From Acidobacteriota bacterium (GTDB taxonomy: Bacteria > Acidobacteriota > UBA6911 > RPQK01 > JAJDTT01): 64,000 bases of DNA. The DNA lies in assembly GCA_963668095.1 (NCBI GenBank), contig OY764083.1, positions 1,521,085 to 1,585,084 of the forward strand, given 5' to 3'. The translations under genes were made by a program, and so were the position numbers. Below the pieces are notes generated by a model. That model had not been told where the DNA came from, did no database searches, and worked only from the letters and a program-made list of their open reading frames with translations. Below are positions 18,483 through 49,320 of the stretch, in pieces; position 1 is the first letter of the stretch; the number at the start of each line of letters is the position of its first letter.

Positions 18483-18590
18483 GAGAAGGGGACAGTCACG
18501 TTCTCGGTAGAAGGGGACACGCGGAGCGCGCTCCAGAAAAGGGGACAGTCACGTTCTCGCCCGGTCACGCCCGGTCACGTTCTCGCGCGC
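18483..18590 (+). repeat. two copies of the GGGACAGTCACGTTCTC motif plus GGTCACGTTCTCGC half-sites
   Basis: The full motifs lie at 18483-18505 and 18536-18560, with direct repeats of cccggtcacg at 18561-18586. This sits immediately upstream of the octaheme cytochrome operon. Confidence 0.8.
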
Positions 18591-20769: not shown

Positions 20770-20805
20770 CGCCCTTCGGAGCCGGACGAGTCCGGGAGAA
20801 AGGGA

Positions 20806-20828
20806 CAGTCACTTTCTCTGGAGGGGCG
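20806..20828 (+). repeat. GAGAAAGGGACAGTCACTTTCTC motif copy
   Basis: A perfect 7-bp inverted repeat flanks the GGGACAGTCA core. A gggcg...cgccc hairpin follows at about 20833-20851. Confidence 0.8.
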
Positions 20829-28262: not shown

Positions 28263-28285
28263 GAAGTAGACTGTCCCTTTCTCGC
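28263..28285 (-). repeat. GGGACAGTC motif copy (reverse orientation) at the duplication junction
   Basis: The reverse complement reads gcgagaaagggacagtctacttc. Confidence 0.75.
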
Positions 28286-35609: not shown

Positions 35610-36845
35610 TCAGACCTCGGCCGCTTGGTCCCAGACCCGGAGAAAGTTCTCCCCCAGGATCTTGCGGATGTCCCGGTCGCTGTATCCCCGCTTCACCAGG
35701 CCCCGGGTCAGGTTCGGCCGCTTGGATCGGTCTTCCAGGTCCTCGACCGGCTCGTTGTCCGAGGAGACCGCAACGTGGTCGATTCCGGCCACCTTGACGG
35801 CATGGTCGATGTGGTCCAGGAAAGCGTCGATGGGAGGCAGGTCGATTTCCTCGGTGTAGGAATGCGAATCCAGCGTATTCCTCATGGCGGCGGCAATCTC
35901 CCAGGGATCGGAGTGCTCCCGGGCCAGGCGCAGATCCCGGTCCGTGTAGTCGGGGAGGAACCGGGACTTCATCATGTCGTTCAGGGCCTTGGCATCCAGG
36001 TAGGAGGGAACGGTGAAGATGCTCACCACGCCTCCGTTCTCGGCCAGGGCCCGCAGCATCTCGTCCGTAAGGTTGCGCTGCACGTAGCACAGGGCTCGGC
36101 AACCGGAATGGGTGGCGATGATGGGTTTGGAACTGGTGCGGATCGTGTCCCAGAACGCCTGGTCCGAGGCATGGGAGACATCCACCAGCATCCCGATCCG
36201 GTTGCACTCGCGGACCACGTCGCGGCCGAAGTCGCTCAATCCGGTCTTGGGGTTCAGTTCCCCGCTGGAGTCGACCCAGTCGAAAGCGGCGATATGGGTC
36301 AACGCGAAGACCCGGATTCCCATGCGGTGATACATCCTCAGGACGGCCAGATCATTGTGGATCCAGCCCGCGTTGAGCATGGGGATCACCGCAATCCTGC
36401 CGGCTCCGGCGATTCGCTCGACATCGGAGGACCGAAGGGCCAGTTCCACGGCATCCGGGTGCTTCCGCACGCTTTGCTGCAGTATCTCGTCGACGCGCTG
36501 CAGGACCCGCTTGACCACGTCCGGGCCGTCAAACAGGTTGTCGCAGATGTTCTTGCCCGCCTCGGGAGGATTGATGATTCCTTCCCGCGCATCGCTCCGG
36601 AAGATTTCTTCCACGCCGATCCCGTGGACGATGGCGTCGACCTGGCCCGTTTGGAAGTCTTCCAGGTAAAGCTTGCCGTAGGTGTCGATGACAATGGCGT
36701 CCCAGTGGAGTTGGGCTGGTTCTGGAGGCCCGGGAGATCCAACTGAGCGTTCACCCTGCGTGCATCCGCCCGCCATACCCAAAGCAACGGCCGAAAGAGA
36801 CTGCTTGAGAAAGCCACGTCGTTTCATGGAACTGATAATCCTCAT
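35610..36845 (-). CDS. membrane dipeptidase (peptidase M19), Tat signal
   Basis: A Tat motif (MKRRGFLKQSLSAVALGMAGG) with the M19 motifs VDVSHASD, IATHSGCRAL and RNLTDE. Confidence 0.8.
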   Translation of the reverse strand: MRIISSMKRRGFLKQSLSAVALGMAGGCTQGERSVGSPGPPEPAQLHWDAIVIDTYGKLYLEDFQTGQVDAIVHGIGVEEIFRSDAREGIINPPEAGKNICDNLFDGPDVVKRVLQRVDEILQQSVRKHPDAVELALRSSDVERIAGAGRIAVIPMLNAGWIHNDLAVLRMYHRMGIRVFALTHIAAFDWVDSSGELNPKTGLSDFGRDVVRECNRIGMLVDVSHASDQAFWDTIRTSSKPIIATHSGCRALCYVQRNLTDEMLRALAENGGVVSIFTVPSYLDAKALNDMMKSRFLPDYTDRDLRLAREHSDPWEIAAAMRNTLDSHSYTEEIDLPPIDAFLDHIDHAVKVAGIDHVAVSSDNEPVEDLEDRSKRPNLTRGLVKRGYSDRDIRKILGENFLRVWDQAAEV

Positions 36846-37027
36846 TTCAACTTCGGATCCGAATTCCTCCGAGGGACGCACCACACTACTCACCTTCACC
36901 CATCGGAGGCAGCAACCTTTCTCATATTTCTATTGAAGGCGCCACTAAATCCCTTGAATTCCACCTGCTTTTCGCTGAGAAGCTGATCCCCAAAAACATG
37001 TCTCCATCTGCTCGTCAGCAGCAGACG

Positions 37028-37051
37028 GGAGATGTAGACTGTCGCTTTCTC
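37028..37051 (-). repeat. GGGACAGTC-family motif copy (variant GCGACAGTC)
   Basis: The reverse complement reads cgagaaagcgacagtctacatctc. It sits upstream of a compositionally distinct gene. Confidence 0.65.
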
Positions 37052-37397
37052 GATCCGTCCCTATGATGGGTCCAGTTAAAGTCGAAGAGACATACATGGC
37101 CGGAAAAACGCCGAACATGCACAAGGCTCAAGAAGACAAGATCATCGGAATCCGCCGCCAGGACTGCCGACAGAGGACGACTTGGCCGAGCCGGTGTTCT
37201 CGCCGAGGAGATCATCAACAGCCTAGAATCTGGCATGAATAGTTTCCGTGATATCCCTACTGGTTTGCGTCAGGCAGGTAGTTGATGGGCCGCTGATTCA
37301 TGCACCATGGCCGTCTTTTGGAACACGATCCTCTTCTAAAGCTTATTTCCGGCGAACTCCGCATGGAGAACGCCAACACACTTTTGGAGGCCACCCT

Positions 37398-39530
37398 ATG
37401 AAGATTTCCACGATCCTCGACAAGATTGACGAAAAGCAGCTATTCGTACCTGCGTTTCAGCGCGAGTATGTCTGGAAACGCGATGACGCGAGGCTGTTGA
37501 TAGATTCGTTGATAAAGGAATATCCGACGGGCACGATGCTCACTTGGGAAACTGATCAACCGCCCGAGTTTAAGGGGCCGCATAAGTACAACTCGAAACA
37601 AGGTGCAGTTCGCCTCCTACTCGACGGCCAACAGCGTGTCACAACACTTTACATGCTGATCCGAGGTGAGTTTCCACCTTATTATACGGCGGCTGAGATC
37701 ATGGCTGACCCACGCGGGCTCTATGTAAACGTTGATACATTAGAATTAGCTTACTACATGAAGATAAGAATGGAAAGGAACCCGCTTTGGCTGGACATCA
37801 CTGAATTGTTTCGTGGTAAGATAGACGCGTTTGACTTGGAGCCTGCCTGTTCCGCTATCGGCAAAAGCCTCACAATCGATGAGCTTAAGCGGTACAACAA
37901 GAATATCAACGCAATTAAACAAATCGTGGGTCGTGAATTTCCTGAACAAACGATCCCGATCAAAGCCAATATCCGGGAAGCCATCGACATATTCTATAAA
38001 GTAAACGCCAGCGGTGTTGCGCTGACAGAGGCCGAGTTGGCTATGGCACAGATTTGCGGGTATTGGCCGGAGGCTCGCGACCTCTTTAAGGTCAAGCTTG
38101 CTGAACTGGAAAAGTCAGGCTTCGGATTTCGGCTGGATTTCTTGGTATATGTGCTGCTCGGATGTGTGCATCACATGGGCTCGGATATGCGCAAGCTTCA
38201 TGCTCAGGATAACAAGGCTGCCCTTCAATCGGCGTGGAAACGGCTCGACGAGCAGGTCCTTGACTACGTCGTGAATTTACTCCGGGCGAGCGCGTTTGTG
38301 GACCACTTCCGTGAAATCAACTCGCCTTACGCGCTGGTCCCAATCATCGTCTACTGCTTCGACAAGGAGGGCACACCCCTGACGGATCTAGAGATTCGGA
38401 AGATGGTGAAGTGGTTTTACTATTCTCAGATTCGATCACGCTACGTCAGCCAGCTTCCACAAAAGCTTGATCGCGATCTTCGCACGTTGACCGAATCGGA
38501 ACAGCCATTTGACGATCTTCTGCAGGTGATCGCAGAGGAGCGCCCGCTCGAAGTGCTCCCACTAGAGTTCGAAGGCCGGGCGACCCGACACCCCTTGTTC
38601 AGCATGGTCCGATGGTATTTGAAGAGCCGAGGAGCAGTATGCCTAACAACTGGTGTCAGTCTCCACAAGAATATGGGCAAGAAGTACCAGATCGAGATGG
38701 ATCACATCTTTCCCTTTTCCCGGTTGAAGCGCAAAGGCTACGGAAGGGGCAACCGTATCAAGTATGCCCTGGCTCAGGAATTCACCAATCGCGCACTGTT
38801 GACCCAAGTAGCGAACCGCAGCAAGGCCGCGATGGATCCCGCGCGCTATCTGGCGGATGTCGCGGAAAAGTTTCCCAATGCGCTTGATTTGCAGTGCATT
38901 CCTATCGATCAGAAATTGTGGAAAATAGATAACTATGAGAGATTTCTGGAGAGCCGCCGAGCGCTTCTCGCTTCTCACATCAATGCGTATCTCAACAGTA
39001 TCACTGTTACGGAAGAGGTCTTCGTGCCCGCGTCGATCGAGGATCTCATCAAGGATGGTGAGAGCGATGAGTTGGAGTTTAAGGCAACTCTGCGCTGGGA
39101 CATCATAGAGGGCAAGGTCAACAAAAAGCTTGAACAGGTCATCGTAAAAACTGTGGCTGCGTTCGCCAATGCACAAGGCGGGAGTTTGCTCATCGGCGTT
39201 GATAATGACGGGCGAGCAGTCGGCCTGTCCCGTGATTATGAATCACTCGGCGAAGCCAGTAGAGATCGGTTCGAGGTGCATCTGCGTAACGTGCTTAACC
39301 AGCAGCTTGGCCCGACTTTCGTTGCCAGCAAGATTAAAACCCAGTTTCATGCAGTGGATGATGGCGACGTGTGCCAAGTTGACGTAACCACGGCTAAGGA
39401 GCCGGTGATTGTCGCGATCAAAGACAAGAATGGTCGGTTGTTGGAGAAGTTCTACGTAAGAAGTGGGAACTCGTCTCAGGAAATCCCGATGAGTGAGATG
39501 ACTTCCTACGTCAAAGAGCGGTTTGGATAA
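37398..39530 (+). CDS. GmrSD-family type IV restriction-like protein (DUF262 + DUF1524/HNH) with C-terminal AlbA_2/Schlafen-like domain
   Basis: The N-terminus has FQREYVW...DGQQRVTTLYML (DUF262 / ParB-like). The middle has IEMDHIFPFS (a DUF1524 His-Me finger). The C-terminal ~150 aa (ESDELEFK...VAAFANAQGGSLLIGVDNDGRAVGL) match the AlbA_2 (divergent AAA / Schlafen-type) domain. Local GC is about 50%. Confidence 0.7.
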   Translation: MKISTILDKIDEKQLFVPAFQREYVWKRDDARLLIDSLIKEYPTGTMLTWETDQPPEFKGPHKYNSKQGAVRLLLDGQQRVTTLYMLIRGEFPPYYTAAEIMADPRGLYVNVDTLELAYYMKIRMERNPLWLDITELFRGKIDAFDLEPACSAIGKSLTIDELKRYNKNINAIKQIVGREFPEQTIPIKANIREAIDIFYKVNASGVALTEAELAMAQICGYWPEARDLFKVKLAELEKSGFGFRLDFLVYVLLGCVHHMGSDMRKLHAQDNKAALQSAWKRLDEQVLDYVVNLLRASAFVDHFREINSPYALVPIIVYCFDKEGTPLTDLEIRKMVKWFYYSQIRSRYVSQLPQKLDRDLRTLTESEQPFDDLLQVIAEERPLEVLPLEFEGRATRHPLFSMVRWYLKSRGAVCLTTGVSLHKNMGKKYQIEMDHIFPFSRLKRKGYGRGNRIKYALAQEFTNRALLTQVANRSKAAMDPARYLADVAEKFPNALDLQCIPIDQKLWKIDNYERFLESRRALLASHINAYLNSITVTEEVFVPASIEDLIKDGESDELEFKATLRWDIIEGKVNKKLEQVIVKTVAAFANAQGGSLLIGVDNDGRAVGLSRDYESLGEASRDRFEVHLRNVLNQQLGPTFVASKIKTQFHAVDDGDVCQVDVTTAKEPVIVAIKDKNGRLLEKFYVRSGNSSQEIPMSEMTSYVKERFG

Positions 39531-39574
39531 ATGTGCGGGTTCAGCGAGACGGCTCGCGAAGACGTCCCTCTAGC

Positions 39575-39598
39575 GGGAGAAGTGACTGTCCCTTTCCC
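39575..39598 (-). repeat. GGGACAGTCAC motif copy
   Basis: The reverse complement reads gggaaagggacagtcacttctccc. It sits immediately downstream of the GmrSD-AlbA gene. Confidence 0.75.
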
Positions 39599-39654
39599 GC
39601 CCCTACAAACGAGGACGGCGTGGTCCGCGAGAGTCTCCTTGCCATCGTGCCGGT

Positions 39655-39939
39655 TCAGTTGTCCGCCGGCACCAGCGCTACCGTCAGCCGCGTTCCGGTC
39701 GCTTCGGCGTAGCGACGCAAGGTGGCAATAGACGGCGAAACGCCGCCGCCTTCCAGCCTTGCGACCGCGGACTGAGTCGTGCCGAGACGGCGCGCAAGTT
39801 CCTCCTGCGTCAGCCTCGCTGCGGTTCGGGCGCGAATCAGCGCCTCGATCAGTGCGAACTCCTCATCGGCCCGCGCGTATTCCTCCCGGAATTCAGGGTC
39901 CTTCATGAGGCGCTTCTTCAGGTCTTTTAGTCTCGTCAT
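39655..39939 (-). CDS. XRE-family HTH regulator (antitoxin-like)
   Basis: 94 aa with the HTH LTQEELARRLGTTQSAVARLE. It lies directly downstream of hsdR with no cognate toxin gene adjacent. Confidence 0.7.
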   Translation of the reverse strand: MTRLKDLKKRLMKDPEFREEYARADEEFALIEALIRARTAARLTQEELARRLGTTQSAVARLEGGGVSPSIATLRRYAEATGTRLTVALVPADN

Positions 39940-39943
39940 GTTG

Positions 39944-42900
39944 TCACCTGCTTACGGAGGGTCGCCCAAGCGTGGCAACCGGGCGGTACGCGAGCCGGAA
40001 CGACGTATCGCTAACCCAACTTTTGAAATCCGGATCGTCCATGAACTTCTTGAACAACTGAGTATCGTCCTTCATTACGGCCATCATGACTCGCAAAAGA
40101 GCGTTGTCGTGCTCGATGCGCGCGTTTTCCCGGTCCGAGTTTTCTTGAGCGTTCTTGAAAGCGGTGTCCTGCGCGACTCGTGAAGGAATCGTTTCGGTGA
40201 TGAGCCGGTGCACGCGGTCCGCGTCCTCCCAGGGAATGTTGCCGAAGAGATCGTTGAAAGCCTTGATGATGTTCGAGAGGCGGTCCAACTCGGTCTCGCC
40301 AGGGCTACCGGGACCGGAGTCCCAACCGGGGCTGATCTCGGCATCCTCATCCGACAGAATGATCTTCTGCACCGCCCGTTTCTCGACCCGGTAGCTGTCC
40401 ATGTCGATGGCGTCGAGGATGCCCTTTGACAGATCGTCCTCACGCGGCGACGGCAGCTTCGAGACCAGGAAATTCAGGAAAATCGAGCGTTCTTCCCACC
40501 CGGCATTGTTGTACGGAAGGACCGAGGAGAGGATGGCGTAGGTTCTCAGGAAACCCTTGGCCTGGCGCTTGAACTGAACCTGCTCGTCTTTCTCCAGGTC
40601 CTGCAGGTACGCCGCCACGCAGGCATCGAGGATGGGATCGAGTTCCTCACGGTCCTCGCCGGCCAAGTAGCGCGACACGAACTCTTTGACCTGCTGGCGG
40701 GAATAGACCTGGGCGCCGTCCAGATCTGCCTGGAGGTCGTGCAGCTTGTTGGGATCGGTCTCGTCGGCCAGGATCGTCGCTCGATAGTAGTCGGCGAAGG
40801 CGTCGCGGATGGTGTCCGACTCGTTCAGGAAATCCAGCACGAACACGTCGTGCTTCTTGGGGTGCGCCCGGTTGAGCCGGGAGAGGGTCTGGACCGCCTT
40901 GATGCCGGAGAGCGTCTTGTCAACGTACATCGTGTGCAGCAGAGGTTCGTCGTAGCCGGTCTGGAACTTGTCCGCACAGACCAGAAAGCGGTACGGATCC
41001 TCCCGGAACCTCTCGGCAATCTTGTTCGACGGAAAGCCGTTCAGCTTAGGCTCGCTCAGCTTCGCCCCGCCGTACTCATGCTTCCCCGAGAAGGCCACGA
41101 TGGCCTAGTAGCGGCTCTTTCGTTCCTTCAGGTAGTCGCGGATGGCATGGTAGTACTGGATCGCCCGTTCAATCCCGTTGGTGACGACCATCGCCCGGGC
41201 TCTGCCGCCGATCTTGCCACGGGACAGGACCTGGGTGTGGAAGTGGTCCACCATGATCTCCGACTTGAGGCGGATCGCGTGGTCGTGCCCTTCGACGTAG
41301 CGCCGCAGCTTCCTGCGGGCCTTCTTAACGTCGAATTCGGGATCGTCCTCCACCGCCTTGGCGAGCTTGTAGTAGCTCCTGACCGGCGTGTAGTGGCGCA
41401 GCACGTCCAGGATGAAACCCTCCTGGATCGCCTGCTTCATGCTGTAGGTGTGAAAGGCGTGATGCCGGACCGTACCGTCGCTCTGCGGGTCCGCATCGCC
41501 GAAGATCTCCAGCGTCTTGTTCTTGGGCGTGGCGGTGAAGGCGAAGTAGCTGGCGTTGGAAAGGATCTTGCGCGATTCCATCACGCGGCTGATCCGATCC
41601 TCGTAGGTTTCCTCGTCCTCGGCTTCTCCCGCCTTGCCCAGCGCCTTGGACATGGCTGCGGCGGTGCGGCCCCCCTGGCTTGAGTGGGCCTCGTCGATGA
41701 TGATGGCAAAATGCCTCCCGCGATGTTCGTTGCCGATCTCATCGAGAATGAAGGGGAACTTCTGGATCGTCGAGATTATGATCTTCTTGCCGGACTCAAT
41801 GAACCGCCGCAGGTCGCCAGAACGCTCAGCGTGTCCCACCGTCGAGCGCACCTGGGCGTATTTCCTGATCGTGTCTCGGATCTGCCGGTCGAGGATACGG
41901 CGGTCGGTGACGACGATGATCGAGTCGAAGACCGGAGCGTCGTCCTTTTCCAGCCGGATCAGTTGGTGGGCCAGCCATGCGATCGAAAAGCTCTTCCCGC
42001 TACCCGCCGAGTGCTGGACCAGATAACGCTTCCCCGCGCCGCGGGCTCCCGCGTCGGCCAGGAGCTCGCGCACCGCGTCGATCTGGTGATAACGCGGCCA
42101 GATCTGGACTCGCCGCTTCTTCCCCGTCTTGGCGTCCTTCGATTCCACGACCTGGGCGTAGTTCTCAAGGATGTTGGTCAGGCTCCGGCGGGTCAGCACC
42201 TGGCGCCAAAGGTAGTTCGACCGCAGGCCGTTGGGGTTGGGAGGGTTTCCCGCACCGTCATTCCAACCCCGGTTGAAGGGCAGGAACCAGGAGGCCTTTC
42301 CCTTGAGATGGGTGCAGAAACGGACCTCGTTCTCGTCTACCGCGAAGTGGGCCGCACAACGGCCGAACTCGAAGAGCTTCTCGCGCGGGTTGCGGTCCTT
42401 CCTGTACTGCTCCATGGCGTCGCTCACCGTCTGCTTGGTGAGGCGGTTCTTGAGTTCGAAGGTGAAGACGGGAAGGCCATTGATGAAAAGTCCGATGTCG
42501 AGTGCGCGGTGGGTGCCGTGCCGGCCGTAGCGGAGCTGACGGGTGACGGTGAAGCGATTCTGCCGGAAGCGCCTCTTGGCCTGCTCGTTCTCGGGCGAGG
42601 GGGTTCCGTAGAAGAGGTCGAGTTCGTGGGGACCGTGCCGGATGCCGTTTCGGAGGATGTCGATGGTGCCGCGTTTGGAGATCTCGCCCTGCAACCGGGC
42701 AAGGAACCTGCGGCGTCCGGGGCCGTCTTCGGTCAGTCGCAGGGCCGTGGCGGTTTCGGGTTGGGTGGTTTTCAGGAAGGCGCGGAGTTGGACCAGATCG
42801 ACGCAGTACTCACGATTGTAGTCGCGGTGGTTGCCGCAGGACCAGCCGACGCCACCGTAGCTGGCGGGGGGTTGGCTGACCGTACCCGTTGCCGGCGGGT

Positions 42901-42973
42901 CGCAGGGATCGCCGGTCAGGGCCTTGCAGATAAGACTTTCAAGGCCGCGTTCGGTCGTGTCGGTGGTCGCCAT
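39944..42973 (-). pseudogene. hsdR: type I restriction enzyme R subunit (HsdR) interrupted by one in-frame TAG
   Basis: N-terminal nuclease and helicase motifs (HSAGSGKS, IIDEAHSSQ) sit in 41105-42973. The C-terminal HsdR domain sits in 39944-41098, in the same frame. A single amber codon at 41105-41107 (...KSRY*AIVAFSGK...) separates the two halves. Confidence 0.85.
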
Positions 42974-43306: not shown

Positions 43307-43527
43307 GGCAGCGAGTCCTTCAAGTCCCAGGTCTCGTGGTCGAGAACACTTTCGACCTGCCAGCGTCCAACGCCTGGGAACCACTCCAGAAACTGTTCAA
43401 TCGTGGCGCCATCTCTGAGGTTTTCGAACAGCGCCGCAACGGATACTCGCGTGTCGCAAAATACCCAGGCTCCGCTGACCTTTTCCGGGTCGCGCTCGAC
43501 GGCAGAACACGTCTTCCATCTGGTCAT
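43303..43527 (-). CDS. DUF433-family protein (putative antitoxin partner)
   Basis: VFCDTRVSVAALFENLRDGATIEQFLEWFPGV matches DUF433. It is embedded between hsdS and hsdR. Confidence 0.55.
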   Translation of the reverse strand: MTRWKTCSAVERDPEKVSGAWVFCDTRVSVAALFENLRDGATIEQFLEWFPGVGRWQVESVLDHETWDLKDSLP

Positions 43528-44915
43528 CGAGCTACGTCCTCTGGCATCTCAGTAGTGTTTTCAAGCTTGATCGTGTCTGTCGGCGCGTCGAGTTCTTCCG
43601 ACATTGCGACCGCCGCCTCGCGGACATCGAGCTTACCCGTGACGACATCGGCGATCAGGCGCGCGCGGTATTCGCGGAGCATTTCGATTTGCCGGCGGGT
43701 CCGATTGATGATGTGGTCGGTCTCAAGGATAATCTCGTTTAGAAACTCGACGATAGCCTGCTGCTCGCCGACCGTTGGTACCGGCACGGGAATCTGTCCA
43801 CATTGGTCAAAATAGAGACGCAGTCTCATATCCATGATACCCCTAGAGCGTTTCTTGAACTGTGCCAGATAGATCCGTGTTCTGAACAGGTGATGGTAAT
43901 AGTCTGACGCTAGATCAACAATTGGCATTAATATATCATATGCGGGGCTCGTAACACCATCATAATGGGAAACTCCAACAGCGCCCATCCACGCTAACAA
44001 CTTATTTAAGATTAAATCTCCCTTTTTCACAATCCAATAATCATCAGTTGTTGAAGCCTTATTACCTTTTTCCTCAAGTTCCTTTCTAGGACGCACTCCA
44101 ATATGTGTGTAAATCGATAAAAGCTCCCTGCCGTGCGCAACACCTGATTTTTCCGTTCGTAGTCTGAACATCGTCTTTATCCGCCGCACTTCCCAATGCG
44201 CCGGAACATGGGCGAATCCGTCCACGCCGGAGGCGTTGTAGGCTGGGTAGGGCTGGCCAGTTCGGACATCGATCTGGCCCGTCACGGCTTGGTGGATGAT
44301 GGCCTGCTTCTGCTCCTCCAGAAGCTCGATCAGCCTTTCCTTGGCCCGGATGTAGCGCCGGATGCGACTGTCGGCGTGATCGAGGAAGCGGCCGATTTCA
44401 GCTTGCTCACCTGCCGGAGGAACGGGGAATGGGGCTCCAAGAAAGGCATCGTCCGTCAACTGGAGGCGGGATATCCAGATACCCTTAGAGCGTACTCGCA
44501 GTTCCCAATTGAATGGTTCCGAACGCAGGAGCGTGTCGATGTAGGCGGCGGATACGTCCATCGGGTGCCTTAAGCGGTATACGCCGTAGGCAGTGCTAAC
44601 GATGCCGTGGCACTGAGATATTCCTAGCCCACGGCTCCATGCCCATAGGCTATTGATGACAAGATCCCCAGGCCAGCAAAGCTTATGACCAACGTAGGAT
44701 TCAGCCTTAAACATCGTGACAGCGGTAGACTTCCTCGGTACGACCCCACGGTCTGACGACACTGTGAGCAACTCTTCTTCCCCAGTTGCCGAACGCTCAT
44801 CGATACAGCGGAAGAGTACTTTGCCACGCAGAACTTCCCAGTGCTCAGGTATAAGACCCAACCATTCCACACCAGAATCCATGTAGGTCGGATAGGGCTT
44901 GAGATCGGTGATCAT
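43524..44915 (-). CDS. hsdS: type I restriction-modification specificity subunit (HsdS)
   Basis: Two target-recognition-domain halves with a conserved central and C-terminal coiled region. A 4-nt overlap links it with hsdM. The second TRD (about 43840-44110) is markedly AT-rich. Confidence 0.85.
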   Translation of the reverse strand: MITDLKPYPTYMDSGVEWLGLIPEHWEVLRGKVLFRCIDERSATGEEELLTVSSDRGVVPRKSTAVTMFKAESYVGHKLCWPGDLVINSLWAWSRGLGISQCHGIVSTAYGVYRLRHPMDVSAAYIDTLLRSEPFNWELRVRSKGIWISRLQLTDDAFLGAPFPVPPAGEQAEIGRFLDHADSRIRRYIRAKERLIELLEEQKQAIIHQAVTGQIDVRTGQPYPAYNASGVDGFAHVPAHWEVRRIKTMFRLRTEKSGVAHGRELLSIYTHIGVRPRKELEEKGNKASTTDDYWIVKKGDLILNKLLAWMGAVGVSHYDGVTSPAYDILMPIVDLASDYYHHLFRTRIYLAQFKKRSRGIMDMRLRLYFDQCGQIPVPVPTVGEQQAIVEFLNEIILETDHIINRTRRQIEMLREYRARLIADVVTGKLDVREAAVAMSEELDAPTDTIKLENTTEMPEDVAR

Positions 44916-46894
44916 GACCCTCCTTCGCCCAGGATCTCAGTTAGCAACCCTTCCGTCTCTTGCTCCAGCGCCAGGATGTCAGCGCGGATCTCTTCCAGCG
45001 TGCGCATCGGCTCAGGCTTGTAGAAATATCGATTGAAACTGATTTCGTAGCCGATCTTCACTTTTTTCGGCGGATACCATGCGTCGCCGGCATAGGGTAC
45101 AACCTCGCGAATCAAGAACCCATCAATGCCTCCCTCCTCCAACAGAGGGATCTGTTCGGTGTCGCGCAGATTGGTGTCCGGTTCGTACTCCACCACGGCA
45201 GATCGCCCATTGATGGTAGTTCTGAATAGGCCGTGAAGGGGGTTGGGTTCGGTCCCCCGCTTGTGAATCTTTTTGATCACGGCCGGTGCCGTCTCACTCC
45301 GCTCGCCACTTGCTTTCAGTCTTCTGATCTCCGCAGCCTTGTATGCACGGCTGGAGTCAATACCTTCGATCCGCAACGGCCTTTCCACCGTCACCTTCCA
45401 GTAGCCGAAGGCGGCATTGTCGAAGATCTTGCTCTCCTCGTTCTCCTCGAACCCGAGGAACGTCTCGCAGATCCAAGCAATGTCCTCTTCAGCGAGTTCG
45501 CAGTTCTTCTTTCCCAGGTTTTTCCGCAAAGGCTGGAATCTCTTCGTAGCGTCGATTAGCTGCACCTTGCCCTTCCGGTGATCCGGTTTCCGGTTTGTGA
45601 GGACCCAGACATAGGTGGCGATGCCGGTGTTGTAGAACATGTTGAGCGGCAGAGCGACGATCGCTTCCAACCAGTCGTTCTCGATGATCCAACGACGGAT
45701 GTTGCTCTCCCCCTGGCCGGCATCACCAGTGAAAAGGGAACTGCCGTTATGGACCTCGGCGATCCGGCTGCCGAGGGGCGTATGCTCCTTCATCTTGGAG
45801 AGTTTGTTGGCGAGAAACAACATCTGACCGTCGCTGGTCCGTGTGACCAGGGAACATTCGGGATCGCCCGCATGCTCGATCACGAAACGCGGGTCGAGCA
45901 TCTCCTTCTTGCCGCCCATGCGCGCCAAGTCGCTCTTCCAGCTCTTGCCGTAGGGTGGATTGGAGAGCATGAAGTCGAACTCGCTGGACGGGAAAGCGTC
46001 GTTGGCGAGTGTCGAGTGCTCGGGTCCGCCCACGATGTTGTCGGCCGCCGCGCCTTCCCCTTTCAGCAGCAGGTCGGCCTTGCAGATGGCGTAAGTCTCG
46101 GCGTTGATCTCCTGGCCGTAGAGGTGGGTGGAGACCTTCTTGCCCCGCTCGGCAGCGAGCCGCGACAGGGTCTCCTCGGCCACCGTCAACATGCCGCCGG
46201 TCCCGCAGGCGCCGTCGTAGAGCAGGTAAGTTCCGGACTTGATCTCGTCGGCGATGGGTAGGAAGAGGAGCTTCGCCATAAGCGTCACGGCGTCCCGCGG
46301 GGTCCAGTGTTCCCCCGCCTCCTCGTTGTTCTCCTCGTTGAAGCGCCGGACCAGCTCTTCGAAGATCGACCCAATCCCGTGGTTGTCGAGGCCGGGATGC
46401 CGCACGGACCTGTCAGCATTCAGGACCGGGTCGGGACTCAGATTGATTTCCGGCGAAGTGAGCTTCTCGATCATCGAGCCCAAGGCATCGGCCCTGGACA
46501 GCCGTGGAATCTGGTTGCGGAATTCGAAGTTGTCCAGAATGTCCTGAACGTTGGGAGAAAAGCCGTCCAGGTAGGCCTTGAAGTCGGCCGTGAGCTGCTG
46601 CCGGTTGCCGCGGGACCTCAAGTCGCGCAAGGTGAACTTCGAGGTGTTGTAGAATTCCTGTTCCGAGGCCTGCCGCAGGGCCGGATCCTGCTCGACGATA
46701 CCCAGCCCATCGAGACTGGCTTTCATATCAAGCACGGCCTGCTTCGTGTCCTCGAGCACCACATCCAGCCGCCGCAGGACGGTCATGGGAAGAATGACGT
46801 CGCGGTACTTGCCACGCACGTAGAGATCGCGCAGAACGTCGTCGGCGATGCCCCAGATGTAGTTGGCGATCCAGTTCAGATCGTTGCTGCTCAT
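44912..46894 (-). CDS. hsdM: type I restriction-modification N6-adenine methyltransferase subunit (HsdM)
   Basis: The NPPY motif (LSNPPYGKSW), the AdoMet motif (DGACGTGGML) and an HsdM N-terminal domain. The ORF track extends to 46975; the start is placed here at MSSNDLNW. Confidence 0.9.
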   Translation of the reverse strand: MSSNDLNWIANYIWGIADDVLRDLYVRGKYRDVILPMTVLRRLDVVLEDTKQAVLDMKASLDGLGIVEQDPALRQASEQEFYNTSKFTLRDLRSRGNRQQLTADFKAYLDGFSPNVQDILDNFEFRNQIPRLSRADALGSMIEKLTSPEINLSPDPVLNADRSVRHPGLDNHGIGSIFEELVRRFNEENNEEAGEHWTPRDAVTLMAKLLFLPIADEIKSGTYLLYDGACGTGGMLTVAEETLSRLAAERGKKVSTHLYGQEINAETYAICKADLLLKGEGAAADNIVGGPEHSTLANDAFPSSEFDFMLSNPPYGKSWKSDLARMGGKKEMLDPRFVIEHAGDPECSLVTRTSDGQMLFLANKLSKMKEHTPLGSRIAEVHNGSSLFTGDAGQGESNIRRWIIENDWLEAIVALPLNMFYNTGIATYVWVLTNRKPDHRKGKVQLIDATKRFQPLRKNLGKKNCELAEEDIAWICETFLGFEENEESKIFDNAAFGYWKVTVERPLRIEGIDSSRAYKAAEIRRLKASGERSETAPAVIKKIHKRGTEPNPLHGLFRTTINGRSAVVEYEPDTNLRDTEQIPLLEEGGIDGFLIREVVPYAGDAWYPPKKVKIGYEISFNRYFYKPEPMRTLEEIRADILALEQETEGLLTEILGEGGS

Positions 46895-47220
46895 TGGATA
46901 CTCAGGATATCTCAAACTGTCCAGAATCCCAGGATACCGGGAGTATTCCGGCGGGATGAAACTTGGTCCTGGCATTGCGACACCGATTTGGTAGTGGACT
47001 CTCCCGTTCTCTCAGTGGAGCATCGGTTCTTCGTCCCGTGCGGGCGATCCGGCTCTTTTGCGGCCCCTGGAAAACGCGGAGACTTCTCGTATGCTCCCCC
47101 ACCGGTCGCGGGCCGGCGGAATCCAGACAGAAAAAGAATGGTCTGGGAGCGTCGGCTCTCCGCCGTCAGACTCCGATGGAGCCAGAGGAAGAGGAGCAAT
47201 GGGGGGACAAGAAAAAGCGT

Positions 47221-47550: not shown

Positions 47551-49320
47551 GAGGCTGTCCGACAACTCGGCATTGAGCGAGTTCCGTCCGTAAAAACGCT
47601 CATGGGCGATGGCCCGTGGCTCCGAATCCCGTTGAATCTCGGGCTCCGAAGCCGAGGGAATCGATTTATTGCTCTAATTTCGGCTCGGAAAGGGCATTCA
47701 GAGGCCGGGTTTTGCCTTTAAATGGCCTGATCCGCCCTTTTTTACGCGAAAGCCGCTCGTTTCCCGAATTCCGGACACACCTCTCCCTGCACCGCCGCAA
47801 GAATGATCTTCTTGAGGTTGTGCGCCGCACAGACGAGTGAGAATTCCCCGGCCACTTTCGCCTTGCCCCGCAACCCGAAACCTCGGAATCCCGAGTTCTT
47901 GATTTGCCCGAACACCGGCTCCACGATGGTCTTGCGACGCGCGTAGATCGCTCGCCCCTCCGGTTTCGACATCCGCTCGTTCATGGCCCGTCGCAACGGC
48001 TCCTGCCCGTCGCTCGTGATCGTGCGGGCCGCTCCTGACTTCGAACGGCAACAGCGACGGTAGTATCGGCAGCCCGCGCACACTTGACGATCGCCCTGAT
48101 ACACTCGCCGTCCCTGGCCATTGCTGCTCTTCAATGTCAGCAACTGCCCGCCGGGACATTCATAGGCGTCCTGCTGCGCGTCGTATCGAAAGTCCGCCTT
48201 CACCAGCCGGCGGTCACTCTCGTCCAGTTCCGTCTTCGCCTTCTTCTCTCCCCGGTCCGTCGCCACGTAGGCTTCCACCTTGCGGTCCGACAGTGCCTGC
48301 AGGTTCGTCCCCGAGTAGTAGCCGTTGTCCAGACTCATCGTCTCCGGCAGATCCCCGGTCGACTCCTGCACCTCATCCAGCGCCGGTTTCACCTCCCGCA
48401 CGCCCGTTGCCTGCTGACTCACGTGCTGTCCCACGATCACCTGAGCCTCGTCGTCCACGCTGATCTGCGGGTTGTAAGCGTACTCGAACGCGCCGTTTTT
48501 CTTCATGATCCGCGCGTCGTGATCCGCGAAGCTGATCTGTTTCTTGTCCTCGATCTCCTGCCCCGGGTGCAACTCCGCCTCCCGCTCTTCCAGCGCCTGC
48601 TTCGCCGCCCGGACCTTCTCCAACCGCTTCTTCTTGTCCTGCAGCTCCTCGGGCAACTCGTAGCCCGTCTCCTCCTGATAGGCTTGATCCTCTTCCTCGT
48701 CGCAACGATCCGCCTGTCGCGTCAGGGCTTCAATCTCCTCGCACAACTCCTGCTCCCGTTGCTTGAGCCGCCCGTAGCTCATCGCCTTGTGCTTCGAGCT
48801 GTTGGCCTTGAACTTCGAGCCGTCCAGGCTCACATGGCCCAGACTCACCAGTCCCATCTCCATTGCCAGCCGCACCGTCTGCTTGAAGCAGGACCGGAAG
48901 AACTCCCCATGGTCCTTGCGGAAATCGCTCAACACCCGGAAGTTCGGGCAGTTCCTCCCGGCGATGTACAGGAACGCCAGATCCTGCCGGCAGCGCTGCT
49001 CGATCTGGCGTGAACTGAACACCCCGTGGCTGTAGGCGTAGATCAGGATCGAGACGAGCTGACGCGCCGCGTAGGCCCGTTGCCCCTGGGGGCTGTACTG
49101 GGCCTCCACCTCCATCGTGTCCAACTGCCGGAACAGATCCCGGTAGAGGAAACAGTCGTGATCCTTCGCCAGCAGGTCAAACACGCTGGCGGGAAACAGT
49201 TGGCTCTGGTAGTGACCATTCGCGTAAGGCTTGAAGCGGGGTAGCATCCGAGACTCTCCTGACGATCCGATGCCCTGATTTTAGGCAGCGTCGGTGACAG
49301 TTCTGTTCTCGGACAGCCTC
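47551..49320 (-). mobile_element. IS1182-family insertion sequence
   Basis: The terminal inverted repeats are GAGGCTGTCCGA at 47551-47562 and its reverse complement at 49309-49320. A single 501-aa transposase lies at 47742-49247 (minus strand). Confidence 0.75.
47742..49247 (-). CDS. IS1182-family DDE transposase
   Basis: LDGSKFKANSSKHKAMSYGRL with a C-terminal Cys cluster and the ...VEPVFGQIKN motif. Confidence 0.8.
   Translation of the reverse strand: MLPRFKPYANGHYQSQLFPASVFDLLAKDHDCFLYRDLFRQLDTMEVEAQYSPQGQRAYAARQLVSILIYAYSHGVFSSRQIEQRCRQDLAFLYIAGRNCPNFRVLSDFRKDHGEFFRSCFKQTVRLAMEMGLVSLGHVSLDGSKFKANSSKHKAMSYGRLKQREQELCEEIEALTRQADRCDEEEDQAYQEETGYELPEELQDKKKRLEKVRAAKQALEEREAELHPGQEIEDKKQISFADHDARIMKKNGAFEYAYNPQISVDDEAQVIVGQHVSQQATGVREVKPALDEVQESTGDLPETMSLDNGYYSGTNLQALSDRKVEAYVATDRGEKKAKTELDESDRRLVKADFRYDAQQDAYECPGGQLLTLKSSNGQGRRVYQGDRQVCAGCRYYRRCCRSKSGAARTITSDGQEPLRRAMNERMSKPEGRAIYARRKTIVEPVFGQIKNSGFRGFGLRGKAKVAGEFSLVCAAHNLKKIILAAVQGEVCPEFGKRAAFA

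What the first reader, a model, noticed from the sequence alone, without database searches (positions are those of the whole stretch)
37398..39530. GmrSD (DUF262+DUF1524) fused to a C-terminal AlbA_2/Schlafen-like domain in a low-GC cassette
GmrSD-type type IV restriction enzymes normally consist of the DUF262 NTPase/ParB-like domain and the DUF1524 His-Me nuclease. Here a further ~150-aa C-terminal domain is attached, with the AlbA_2 / divergent-AAA signature (ELEFK...VAAFANAQGGSLLIGVDNDG). That domain type is typically found in Schlafen-like and RecG-C-like nucleic-acid-binding modules. This three-domain architecture is not the canonical GmrSD layout. The gene has GC near 50% against about 65% around it, and it is bracketed by the GGGACAGTC motif. 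Both features suggest horizontal acquisition as a self-contained defense cassette.
Basis: partly seen in the sequence, partly recalled or inferred. Interest (0 to 1): 0.65.

Follow-up and report, generated by a model that had tools for sequence, protein, structure and literature searches.

The report
BrxU-like restriction enzyme fused to Schlafen
This is an intact, horizontally acquired single-gene phage-defence protein that joins a BrxU/GmrSD-type DNA restriction module to a Schlafen-type RNase domain; that architecture (DUF262-Schlafen) was already published and shown to protect E. coli, so this copy is a new member of a known kind.

Summary
The gene is real. It is one uninterrupted 710-aa ORF at 37398-39530 (+) with a GGAGG ribosome-binding site. 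Pfam confirms GmrSD_N/DUF262 (E 2e-29) and SLFN_AlbA_2 (E 1.5e-17). Pfam DUF1524 does not hit. A divergent His-Me nuclease is nonetheless present: a DHIFP motif, a BrxU/HEC-05 profile match over residues 2-534, and a BrxU fold match.

The Schlafen catalytic motif ExxxxExK is intact (E555, E560, K562). One peripheral Asp is Asn (N603) in this subclade.

The "GGGACAGTC bracket" is not supported. There is one exact copy, downstream and outside the transferred block, and it belongs to a short repeat of the host genome.

Horizontal acquisition is supported by other evidence. The same ~2.3-kb unit (37276-39571; 86-89% nt identity) sits among unrelated neighbours in other genomes. It is a low-GC island here (51% vs 61%) and a high-GC island elsewhere (53% vs 39%).

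The architecture is not new. More than 120 clusters of ~710-aa homologues span many bacterial phyla and archaea. Perez Taboada et al. (2026) list DUF262-Slfn fusions as a class and showed that an E. coli member blocks T7.

Verdict: a new member of a known kind. Its mechanism is still unsolved, so interest is modest.

The parts
37276..37397 (+). Co-transferred 5' untranslated/promoter region, including the ribosome-binding site GGAGG at 37386-37390
   Evidence: Nucleotide homology with the related loci L002/L004 starts at 37276, and with L001 at about 37350. The sequence was read. No sigma-70 consensus promoter was found.
37398..39530 (+). Coding sequence of the 710-aa DUF262-His-Me-Schlafen protein, stop codon included
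   Evidence: ORF list. An identical protein, P0001, and more than 120 clusters of 710-713 aa homologues. dN/dS is 0.09-0.17 against close relatives.
37404..38054 (+). DUF262 / GmrSD_N ParB-like NTPase domain (residues 3-219). Motifs: FQREYVW 20-26, RLLIDS 32-37 (nt 37491-37508), DGQQR 76-80 (nt 37623-37637)
   Evidence: Pfam PF03235, E 2.1e-29. BrxU 7p9k sequence alignment. D76, G77, Q79 and R80 are invariant and S37 nearly invariant in alignment A1. Motif definitions are from PMC8565348.
38055..38639 (+). All-helical linker domain (residues 220-414), as in BrxU
   Evidence: AlphaFold2 secondary structure with pLDDT mostly above 85. Foldseek alignment to BrxU over 611 columns.
38640..38837 (+). 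Divergent DUF1524-type His-Me (HNH) nuclease finger (residues 415-480). DHIFP is at 435-439 (nt 38700-38714), with N464 and N473
   Evidence: PADLOC HEC-05 (BrxU) profile positions 27-595 of 600 match residues 2-534. Weak HNH_4 hit at 415-444. Weak alignments to Cas9 HNH, 'VEVDHALPFSR'. Strand 432-436, strand 465-469 and helix 470-476 in the model. N464 is invariant. Pfam PF07510 itself gives no hit.
38838..39002 (+). C-terminal helices that finish the BrxU-like core (residues 481-535)
   Evidence: Model helices 481-534. Core-only relatives of ~530-545 aa end here.
39003..39038 (+). Flexible inter-domain linker (residues 536-547)
   Evidence: Residues 539-543 are the only segment with pLDDT below 50. 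This is the junction where relatives carry other C-terminal modules.
39039..39527 (+). Schlafen / AlbA_2 nuclease domain (residues 548-710). ExxxxExK = E555...E560-F-K562 (nt 39060-39083). D602-N603-D604 is at nt 39201-39209
   Evidence: Pfam PF04326, E 1.5e-17. Foldseek hits to the SAMD9 tRNase/DBD, DIP2311, SLFN14, SLFN13 and SLFN11. phmmer hits to SLFN8/13, 12, 11 and 14. E555, E560 and K562 are at least 90% conserved. N603 aligns with SLFN14 D249.
39531..39571 (+). Short conserved 3' tail of the transferred unit, containing a small GCGAG...CTCGC inverted repeat
   Evidence: Homology with L001 and L004 ends at 39571. No canonical intrinsic terminator was found.

Best explanation
The locus encodes a stand-alone, horizontally mobile anti-phage protein of the DUF262-Schlafen class (pSlfn7 in Perez Taboada et al. 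2026).

Residues 1-535 form a BrxU/GmrSD-type module. It has a ParB-like NTPase (RLLIDS and DGQQR motifs), a helical linker and a His-Me DNA nuclease (DHIFP). A flexible tether joins it to a single-lobe Schlafen RNase domain with an intact ExxxxExK active site.

Shown here:
- the domain composition and the intact motifs;
- purifying selection on every domain;
- transfer of the gene as a single ~2.3-kb unit;
- location next to a type I restriction-modification operon and an IS element.

Known from the families:
- Prokaryotic Schlafens are kept inactive until a fused sensor changes their oligomeric state or conformation, and then cleave tRNA.
- An E. coli DUF262-Slfn protects against T7 and other phages.

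Inferred:
- The BrxU-like module is the sensor for invading phage DNA. It probably also cuts that DNA.
- Its NTP- and DNA-driven dimer/monomer cycle licenses the tethered Schlafen domains to pair and cleave tRNA.
- This would add translation shut-off (abortive infection) to restriction within one polypeptide.
For: Domain identity:
- Pfam DUF262 and SLFN_AlbA_2 are above threshold.
- The BrxU/HEC-05 profile matches residues 2-534 at E 6e-45. HEC-05 is BrxU.
- The AF2 model has pLDDT 88.3. Foldseek gives BrxU at E 1e-14 over 611 columns, and SAMD9 tRNase, SLFN14, SLFN13 and SLFN11 for the C-terminal domain.
- GmrSD-defining motifs are present: RLLIDS, DGQQR and DHIFP.

Schlafen domain as a catalytic effector:
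- ExxxxExK is present and matches the published catalytic motif.
- Of 47 representatives at 50% identity that carry both nuclease regions, 33 keep both motifs, 11 keep only the Schlafen motif, 2 keep only the His, and 1 keeps neither. Exact McNemar p = 0.022, uncorrected for phylogeny.
- The Schlafen domain is under purifying selection (dN/dS 0.15-0.28), including within the N603 subclade.

Stand-alone, mobile defence gene:
- No neighbour is conserved across L001, L002 and L004.
- The shared nucleotide block is 37276-39571.
- GC contrast is 51% vs 61% here and 53% vs 39% in L002/L003.
- An HsdM-like methylase lies within 8 kb in 7 of 28 fused loci.

Published phenotype and regulation:
- EcoSlfn7 reduces T7 plating about 540-fold.
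- Sensor-driven oligomeric control of a prokaryotic Schlafen is shown for CbCash.
- BrxU has an NTP-driven dimer-to-monomer switch.
Against: - No biochemical or phage data exist for this protein or any close relative. The coupling between the BrxU-like module and the Schlafen domain is inference only.
- I could not obtain the EcoSlfn7 sequence, so whether it is related beyond sharing a domain architecture is untested.
- N603 replaces the Asp that aligns with SLFN14 D249 in this subclade. In SLFN14, D249N only moderately affects tRNA cleavage, but a weakened RNase cannot be excluded.
- Sister proteins carry DNA-reader modules (RAMA, Mrr_N, DUF4357) at the same C-terminal position. That fits a targeting role for the appended domain as well as an effector role.
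- EcoSlfn7 acts best on T7, which has unmodified DNA. Classical modification-dependent sensing may therefore not apply.
- Loss of the His-Me histidine is not significantly more frequent in Schlafen-fused than in unfused relatives (Fisher p = 0.29).
Confidence: 0.6

Rival explanations
1. It is a type IV (modification-dependent) restriction enzyme whose AlbA_2/Schlafen domain is a non-catalytic nucleic-acid-binding or targeting module. The domain would help recognise or hold the substrate for the His-Me nuclease, and the only effector activity would be DNA cleavage.
For: - In sister proteins on the same core, the same C-terminal position carries known DNA-reader or binding modules: RAMA + Mrr_N + DUF4357 in P0182, and DUF5655 in P0253.
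- GmrSD C-terminal extensions such as DUF4357 and DNA_binding_1 were reported in 2015.
- The best structural match of the C-terminal domain is deposited as a SAMD9 'DNA-binding domain with DNA' (7ksp).
- This subclade has Asn at the position of SLFN14 D249.
- The His-Me motif DHIFP/N464/N473 is intact in the window protein.
Against: - The catalytic ExxxxExK is intact here. It is kept in 44 of 47 representatives that carry the domain, more consistently than the His-Me histidine (35 of 47).
- Eleven representatives have lost the His-Me histidine but keep ExxxxExK. A pure targeting domain would then have no nuclease left to serve.
- The same SAMD9 domain is a tRNase (9o0d).
- Every experimentally studied prokaryotic Schlafen is a tRNase.
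- In SLFN14, D249N is only moderately impaired in tRNA cleavage and keeps residual activity on 5S rRNA.
Confidence: 0.22
2. The Schlafen RNase is the only relevant effector. The BrxU-like part is purely a sensor/NTPase switch, and its His-Me site is vestigial or serves only to bind DNA. This would be a pure abortive-infection tRNase with no restriction.
For: - The His-Me histidine has been lost repeatedly in Schlafen-fused relatives: 11 of 47 keep only the Schlafen motif.
- The published view is that domains fused to prokaryotic Schlafens act as sensors.
- EcoSlfn7 is most active against T7, which lacks hypermodified bases.
Against: - In the window protein and all its close relatives D435, H436, N464 and N473 are intact.
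- The His-Me segment has the second-lowest dN/dS of the four segments in all three window comparisons (0.10-0.12), lower than that of the Schlafen domain.
- His loss is not significantly enriched in fused versus unfused relatives (p = 0.29).
Confidence: 0.13
3. It is a decaying or non-functional remnant, or two separate genes mis-read as one, sitting in a degraded defence island.
For: - The neighbouring hsdR carries an in-frame TAG.
- An IS element is nearby.
- N603 sits at a normally acidic active-site position.
Against: - The reading frame is uninterrupted and has a good ribosome-binding site.
- Length is identical in more than 120 homologue clusters.
- dN/dS is 0.09-0.17 overall and at most 0.28 in every domain in the comparisons that involve the window copy.
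- The AF2 model is confident across all domains.
- The N603 variant is shared by at least 12 clusters of otherwise intact proteins.
Confidence: 0.03

Closest known systems
EcoSlfn7 / DUF262-Slfn class of prokaryotic Schlafens (Perez Taboada et al., Nat Microbiol 2026, PMC13056530)
   Same: Same Pfam-level architecture, DUF262 plus a Schlafen nuclease domain with Ex4(E/D)xK. Both are single-gene systems found in defence islands. The class is reported as 1.8% of 5,930 prokaryotic Schlafens, and the E. coli UC4224 member protects against T7 and other phages.
   Different: DNA searches of E. coli genomes with this gene and with two gammaproteobacterial relatives found nothing, so orthology is untested. 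The paper does not mention a His-Me/DUF1524 nuclease in this class and did not study the mechanism. The window protein comes from a ~61% GC environmental bacterium and has N603 at a peripheral active-site Asp.
BrxU (E. fergusonii pEFER; PDB 7P9K; PADLOC HEC-05), a GmrSD-family type IV restriction enzyme
   Same: Residues 1-535 match BrxU by sequence (E 2.8e-13), by profile (E 6e-45) and by fold (E 1e-14 over the whole chain). The RLFDS-like, DGQQR and DH(I)xP motifs are shared.
   Different: BrxU ends after the His-Me domain and has no Schlafen domain. Identity is only ~18%. BrxU is embedded in a BREX locus, whereas this gene sits convergent to a type I RM operon. BrxU's specificity for modified DNA is not established for this protein.
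GmrSD (Eco94GmrSD / CT596) and SspE
   Same: The DUF262 NTPase plus DUF1524 His-Me nuclease layout. C-terminal add-on domains are known in the family.
   Different: Only weak N-terminal similarity to SspE profiles (E 3e-5 to 1e-2, residues ~11-88). Pfam GmrSD_C gives no hit. There is no phosphorothioation (ssp) or other partner gene nearby.
Other prokaryotic Schlafen effectors: RorSlfn5 (Ig-like sensor), CbCash (Csx15 sensor), SLFN-pAgo
   Same: A single-lobe Schlafen nuclease domain with the same catalytic motif is fused to a sensor module. Activity is gated by the sensor, through trigger binding or oligomerisation, and the output is tRNA cleavage.
   Different: Here the fused module is itself a putative nuclease/NTPase (BrxU-like), not a protein- or cyclic-nucleotide-binding sensor. 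The Schlafen domain is C-terminal here and N-terminal in RorSlfn5 (catalytic E15/D20).
Mammalian SLFN11/13/14 and the SAMD9 tRNase domain
   Same: The fold and the ExxxxExK catalytic core of the C-lobe. Weak but specific sequence hits centre on ...AFAN.QGG.LLIGVDD....
   Different: Mammalian SLFNs have two AlbA_2-like lobes in one chain (two hits per chain) plus helicase domains. This protein has one lobe and would need to oligomerise. N603 replaces the residue equivalent to SLFN14 D249.

Membership tests
GmrSD / BrxU family of type IV restriction enzymes | N-terminal DUF262 (PF03235) domain with the nucleotide-binding RLFDS-type motif and the DGQQR motif | tested here: met
   PF03235 E 2.1e-29, 103.5 bits against a cut-off of 33.2. 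RLLIDS is at 32-37 and DGQQR at 76-80. D76, G77, Q79 and R80 are invariant. Motif definitions are from PMC8565348.
GmrSD / BrxU family of type IV restriction enzymes | C-terminal DUF1524 domain recognised by Pfam PF07510 (GmrSD_C) | tested here: not met
   No PF07510 hit at E<=0.1 on this protein. Only 7 of 28 family members give weak hits, the best at E 2.8e-4.
GmrSD / BrxU family of type IV restriction enzymes | His-Me/HNH nuclease with a DH(I)xP motif and downstream Asn residues on a beta-beta-alpha fold | tested here: met
   DHIFP at 435-439, with N464 (invariant) and N473. Strand/strand/helix at 432-436, 465-469 and 470-476. The BrxU profile covers this region and the BrxU fold alignment covers the whole chain. 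BrxU's motif is DHIYP.
GmrSD / BrxU family of type IV restriction enzymes | NTP-dependent cleavage of modified (5hmC / glc-5hmC) DNA; NTP-driven dimer-to-monomer switch | not testable with these tools
   These are biochemical properties, known only for BrxU and GmrSD.
Prokaryotic Schlafen nucleases, DUF262-Slfn class (pSlfn7) | Schlafen/AlbA_2 nuclease domain | tested here: met
   PF04326 E 1.5e-17, 64.7 bits against a cut-off of 25.3. Foldseek hits to the SAMD9 tRNase, SLFN14, SLFN13 and SLFN11. phmmer hits to SLFN8/13, 12, 11 and 14.
Prokaryotic Schlafen nucleases, DUF262-Slfn class (pSlfn7) | Catalytic Ex4(E/D)xK motif | tested here: met
   E555-SDEL-E560-F-K562. The motif is as defined in PMC13056530. 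It is at least 90% conserved in A1 and is kept in 44 of 47 representatives.
Prokaryotic Schlafen nucleases, DUF262-Slfn class (pSlfn7) | Fusion of the Schlafen domain to DUF262 in one polypeptide | tested here: met
   A single ORF. Both Pfam domains are in one protein. The same holds in more than 120 homologue clusters.
Prokaryotic Schlafen nucleases, DUF262-Slfn class (pSlfn7) | Tandem peripheral active-site aspartates (SLFN14 D248/D249). These are conserved in only a subset of SLFNs and are not part of the published prokaryotic definition | tested here: inconclusive
   D602 is present, but N603 aligns with D249. The column is Asp in about 88% of close and nearly all distant relatives. SLFN14 D249N keeps partial activity.
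Prokaryotic Schlafen nucleases, DUF262-Slfn class (pSlfn7) | Sequence homology to the experimentally tested member EcoSlfn7 | not testable with these tools
   No supplementary files are held for the paper. E. coli genome DNA searches gave no match. No E. coli plasmid carries a similar Schlafen domain.
Prokaryotic Schlafen nucleases, DUF262-Slfn class (pSlfn7) | Phage defence and infection-triggered tRNA cleavage | not testable with these tools
   This requires experiments.
SspE (phosphorothioate-sensing DUF262-DUF1524 nickase) | Full-length match to SspE profiles and association with sspABCD | tested here: not met
   Only residues ~11-88 match SspE profiles, at E 3e-5 or worse. No ssp genes are in the neighbourhood.

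The most novel reading that the evidence does not exclude
This would be a two-nuclease immune protein in which a BrxU-type restriction module and a Schlafen tRNase are mechanistically coupled. The NTP- and DNA-driven dimer/monomer cycle of the restriction module would act as the infection sensor. It would license pairing of the tethered single-lobe Schlafen domains, so that one polypeptide carries out both restriction of phage DNA and abortive-infection-type tRNA cleavage. The repeated loss of the His-Me histidine in some lineages, and the D603N change in this one, would mark evolutionary tuning between the two outputs.
Probability: 0.3. Interest if true: 0.55.

Novelty: new member of a known kind. 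Interest (0 to 1): 0.3.

Why it matters
DUF262-Schlafen proteins are one of only two prokaryotic Schlafen architectures shown to protect E. coli, but their mechanism has not been studied.

This analysis adds four points:
- The 'DUF262' partner is a complete BrxU-like restriction module with an intact His-Me nuclease. These proteins may therefore combine DNA restriction with tRNA cleavage.
- The Schlafen catalytic motif is retained more consistently than the His-Me histidine.
- The same C-terminal junction hosts alternative modules in relatives (RAMA, Mrr_N, DUF5655 and unknown ones).
- The gene moves as a ~2.3-kb unit between genomes of very different GC content.

None of this changes the classification. 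It does give concrete mutants and constructs for working out how a Schlafen effector is gated by a restriction-type sensor.

Tried and rejected
1. Frameshift or two-gene reading. Rejected: the ORF is continuous, homologues have the same length, and the model is confident.
2. GGGACAGTC as a cassette boundary. Rejected: there is a single exact copy, outside the conserved block and not conserved in related loci. It is part of a host repeat, GAGAA-GGGACAGTCAC-TTCTC, also found at 18489, 18542, 20802 and 28269.
3. Flanking direct or inverted repeats. None were convincing.
4. The longer GTG-initiated ORF from 37248. Rejected: all homologues start at MKIS, and the ribosome-binding site precedes the ATG.
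5. Small upstream and downstream ORFs as partner genes (37300-37401; 39531-39731). They are not conserved beyond the short homology tails and have no Pfam hit.
6. The 59-aa ORF at 37063-37242 as a transposase remnant. Pfam and a plasmid tblastn search found nothing.
7. Retrieving EcoSlfn7. No supplements are held. E. coli genome DNA searches with the window gene and two gammaproteobacterial relatives gave no match. A plasmid tblastn with the Schlafen domain gave no Escherichia hit.
8. Identifying the source organism. An exact-protein contig lookup and cluster names returned nothing.
10. tRNA and Rfam scans for an integration site or an RNA partner found nothing.
11. Phage-encoded copies. Only weak partial DUF262 matches were found.
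12. Enrichment of His-Me loss in Schlafen-fused versus unfused relatives. Not significant (p = 0.29).
Full report
**1. What is in the sequence**

A single ORF runs from the ATG at 37398 to the stop at 39528-39530 on the + strand and encodes 710 aa. The ORF lister also reports a longer GTG-initiated version from 37248. All homologues begin at MKIS..., and a GGAGG box (37386-37390) lies 7 nt upstream of the ATG, so 37398 is the start.

The reading frame is uninterrupted. The 120 best-scoring homologue clusters are nearly all 709-713 aa long (three differ: 643, 706 and 718 aa). All carry the same two precomputed Pfam domains.

**2. Domains**

- Pfam gives GmrSD_N/DUF262 over residues 3-219 (E 2.1e-29) and SLFN_AlbA_2 over residues 555-696 (E 1.5e-17). 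Both are far above the gathering scores.
- Pfam GmrSD_C/DUF1524 does not hit at E<=0.1. There is only a sub-threshold HNH_4 match at 415-444. Among 28 family members, 7 give weak GmrSD_C hits and 6 give weak HNH_4 hits.
- The region is nevertheless a His-Me nuclease of the GmrSD type:
  - The PADLOC HEC-05 profile matches residues 2-534 to profile positions 27-595 of 600 (E 6e-45). HEC-05 is BrxU.
  - phmmer finds BrxU (7P9K) at E 2.8e-13.
  - An AlphaFold2 model has mean pLDDT 88.3, and its only segment below 50 is residues 539-543. It matches BrxU over 611 alignment columns at E 1e-14.
  - The three motifs that define GmrSD enzymes in the literature are RLFDS, DGQQR and DHIYP (PMC8565348). 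They are present here as RLLIDS (32-37), DGQQR (76-80) and DHIFP (435-439), followed by N464 and N473.
  - These residues sit on a strand-strand-helix element in the model.
- The C-terminal domain matches the SAMD9 tRNase/DNA-binding domain, the AlbA_2 protein DIP2311, and SLFN14, SLFN13 and SLFN11. By sequence it matches SLFN8/13, 12, 11 and 14.

**3. Catalytic residues of the Schlafen domain**

The published catalytic motif of prokaryotic and human Schlafens is Ex4(E/D)xK (PMC13056530). The window protein has E555-SDEL-E560-F-K562.

One deviation was found. In the GVDxDG turn the protein reads D602-N603-D604. N603 aligns without gaps to SLFN14 D249 (the 9jr9 chain has native length). This column is Asp in about 88% of close and nearly all distant relatives. 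It is Asn or Thr in the window's own subclade of 14 clusters: 13 have Asn (12 DND, 1 DNE) and one has Thr (DTD). All clusters that I could match to names are at least 88% identical to the window protein.

In SLFN14, D248 and D249 are peripheral active-site residues. D249N only moderately reduces tRNA cleavage and keeps residual 5S rRNA cleavage (PMC12215978). The Schlafen domain is under purifying selection even between two N603 carriers (dN/dS 0.15). I therefore read N603 as a tolerated or tuning substitution, not an inactivation.

**4. Distribution and modularity**

- The word-indexed search finds 2,431 relatives.
- The exhaustive search of representatives at 50% identity finds 11,055 proteins at E<=1e-3 and 509 at E<=1e-30.
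- Full-length fused homologues (25-65% identity) occur in the following groups:
  - Alpha- and Gammaproteobacteria, Planctomycetota, Bacteroidota, Chloroflexota, Acidobacteriota, Actinomycetota and Gemmatimonadota;
  - Desulfobacterota, Elusimicrobia, Marinimicrobia and CPR lineages;
  - Nitrospira and Verrucomicrobia;
  - a DPANN archaeon and haloarchaeal plasmids.
- The 94 top representatives of at least 480 aa, plus the window protein, split as follows:
  - 45 carry the Schlafen motif on this core;
  - 25 are core-only (~520-590 aa);
  - 25 carry other C-terminal extensions.
- Where recognisable, those other extensions are RAMA + Mrr_N + DUF4357 or DUF5655.
- A crude NJ tree of the core intersperses these states. 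The junction at residues ~536-547 therefore looks like a module-swapping point. This is suggestive only.
- Of 47 representatives that have both nuclease regions, 33 keep both catalytic signatures, 11 keep only ExxxxExK, 2 keep only the His-Me histidine and 1 keeps neither. Exact McNemar p = 0.022, uncorrected for phylogeny.
- Loss of the histidine is not significantly commoner in fused than in unfused relatives (p = 0.29).

**5. Context and mobility**

- The gene lies between a peptidase M19 gene (35610-36899, minus strand) and a minus-strand type I RM operon. That operon runs hsdM 44912-46975, hsdS 43524-44915, then hsdR as two ORFs, followed by an XRE-type HTH gene at 39655-39939. An IS transposase lies beyond it.
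- The gene is convergent to the RM operon, so it is not co-transcribed with it.
- Close relatives (85-92% aa identity) sit in unrelated neighbourhoods:
  - a toxin-antitoxin/TIR island (L001);
  - amino-acid and sugar metabolism genes (L002/L003);
  - an IS-disrupted type I RM locus (L004/L005).
- Nucleotide homology to all of them is confined to 37276-39571, or 37350-39571 for L001. This defines a ~2.3-kb unit that carries its own upstream region.
- The unit is 51% GC here against 61% for the window. The 86%-identical copy in L002/L003 is 53% GC inside a ~39% GC genome. Opposite GC contrast in two hosts is direct evidence of recent horizontal transfer.
- An HsdM-like methylase lies within 8 kb in 7 of 28 fused loci and 7 of 34 core-only loci. 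This fits the report that GmrSD-like genes often accompany type I RM and Hma systems.

**6. The GGGACAGTC claim**

- The 9-mer occurs five times in the window against 0.82 expected. Only one copy is near the gene: 39584-39592, minus strand, downstream.
- The upstream candidate has a mismatch, and one-mismatch matches are at chance level.
- All five copies share a longer pattern, GAGAA(A/G)GGGACAGTCAC(G/T)TTCTC. Its folding signal is weak.
- The downstream copy lies beyond the end of the transferred block and is absent from related loci. It is a short repeat of the host genome, not a cassette boundary.

**7. Comparison with what is known**

- C-terminal add-on domains in GmrSD proteins were catalogued in 2015 (PMC4619093).
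- Perez Taboada et al. (bioRxiv 2025; Nat Microbiol 2026) surveyed 5,930 prokaryotic Schlafens and list DUF262 fusions as 1.8% of them. They showed that the E. coli UC4224 DUF262-Slfn protein (EcoSlfn7) lowers T7 plating about 540-fold and affects a broad range of phages. They did not study its mechanism.
- By their Pfam-based criteria the window protein falls in this class.
- Full-length relatives, such as the one on the Haloquadratum walsbyi C23 plasmid NC_017457, are in RefSeq complete genomes, which was their search space.
- I could not obtain the EcoSlfn7 sequence, so direct homology is untested.

**8. Mechanism**

- Shown: domain identity, intact motifs in all three catalytic modules, purifying selection, single-gene mobility and defence-island context.
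- Established for relatives:
  - BrxU's cycle of NTP binding, monomerisation, hydrolysis, re-association and cleavage of modified DNA.
  - Sensor-gated tRNA cleavage by prokaryotic Schlafens, with activity controlled by oligomeric state.
- Mammalian SLFNs contain two AlbA_2-like lobes per chain (two hits per chain). This protein has one lobe.
- Inferred: the BrxU-like module senses phage DNA and probably cuts it. Its dimer/monomer cycle governs productive pairing of the tethered Schlafen lobes, which then cleave tRNA.
- Rivals:
  - a purely sensory BrxU-like part;
  - gene decay, which the selection data make unlikely.

**9. Verdict**

The 'DUF1524' call holds only in the sense of a divergent His-Me finger that Pfam does not recognise. 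The motif bracket is wrong.

The interpretation of a mobile, self-contained defence gene is supported. The architecture is not new. This is a new, environmentally derived member of the published DUF262-Schlafen defence class, and its mechanism is still open.

Noticed in passing
window 18489-18497, 18542-18550, 20802-20810 (+); 28269-28277, 39584-39592 (-): GGGACAGTC is the core of a longer recurrent element, GAGAA(A/G)GGGACAGTCAC(G/T)TTCTC: a short GAGAA/TTCTC stem around a constant loop. There are five exact copies against 0.82 expected. Folding z-scores are weak (-1.95 to +0.9). It looks like a short repeat of the host genome. Its function is unknown.
   Followed up: partly
window 41105-41107 (minus strand), between ORFs 41105-42973 and 39944-41098: The type I restriction subunit gene hsdR is interrupted by an in-frame TAG (...KERKSRY*AIVAFSG...). 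It splits the N-terminal nuclease/SWI2-SNF2 part from the C-terminal part. This is a probable pseudogene or a sequencing error; hsdM and hsdS look intact.
   Followed up: partly
window 39655-39939 (-): A 94-aa XRE/HTH_3 protein is encoded 4 nt downstream of the hsdR C-terminal ORF. No toxin-like partner is adjacent. It could be a controller (C) protein or an orphan antitoxin.
   Followed up: no
window 47742-49247 (-): An IS transposase (DUF772 + DDE_Tnp_1_6 / DDE_Tnp_1) lies just upstream of the type I RM operon. A related DUF772 transposase sits directly downstream of the homologous gene in locus L001 (10342-11649).
   Followed up: no
window 37063-37242 (+), in the low-GC spacer 36900-37275 (52% GC): A 59-aa ORF (MMGPVKVEETYMAGKTPNMHK...) recalls, from memory only, an IS1595-type transposase motif. 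Pfam and a plasmid tblastn search gave no support.
   Followed up: yes
L002 8001-10157 and L003 6268-8424 versus their flanks: The same gene (86% nt identity to the window copy) is a 53% GC island in a ~39% GC genome, whereas it is a 51% GC island in the 61% GC window. In more distant hosts the gene's GC tracks the host but stays 2-7 points lower.
   Followed up: yes
Proteins P0182 (923 aa), P0253 (760 aa) and P0185/P0194/P0203/P0210 (837-973 aa): Relatives with the same BrxU-like core carry other C-terminal modules in place of Schlafen: RAMA + DUF4357 + Mrr_N, DUF5655, or 300-450 aa with no Pfam match. The unannotated modules may be further uncharacterised sensor or effector domains.
   Followed up: partly
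Proteins P0131, P0134, P0139, P0146, P0148, P0170, P0200, P0208, P0216, P0223: These are Schlafen-fused relatives in which the His-Me catalytic histidine (H436 equivalent) is replaced or deleted while ExxxxExK is retained. They are natural 'nuclease-dead restriction module' variants, useful for separating the two activities.
   Followed up: partly
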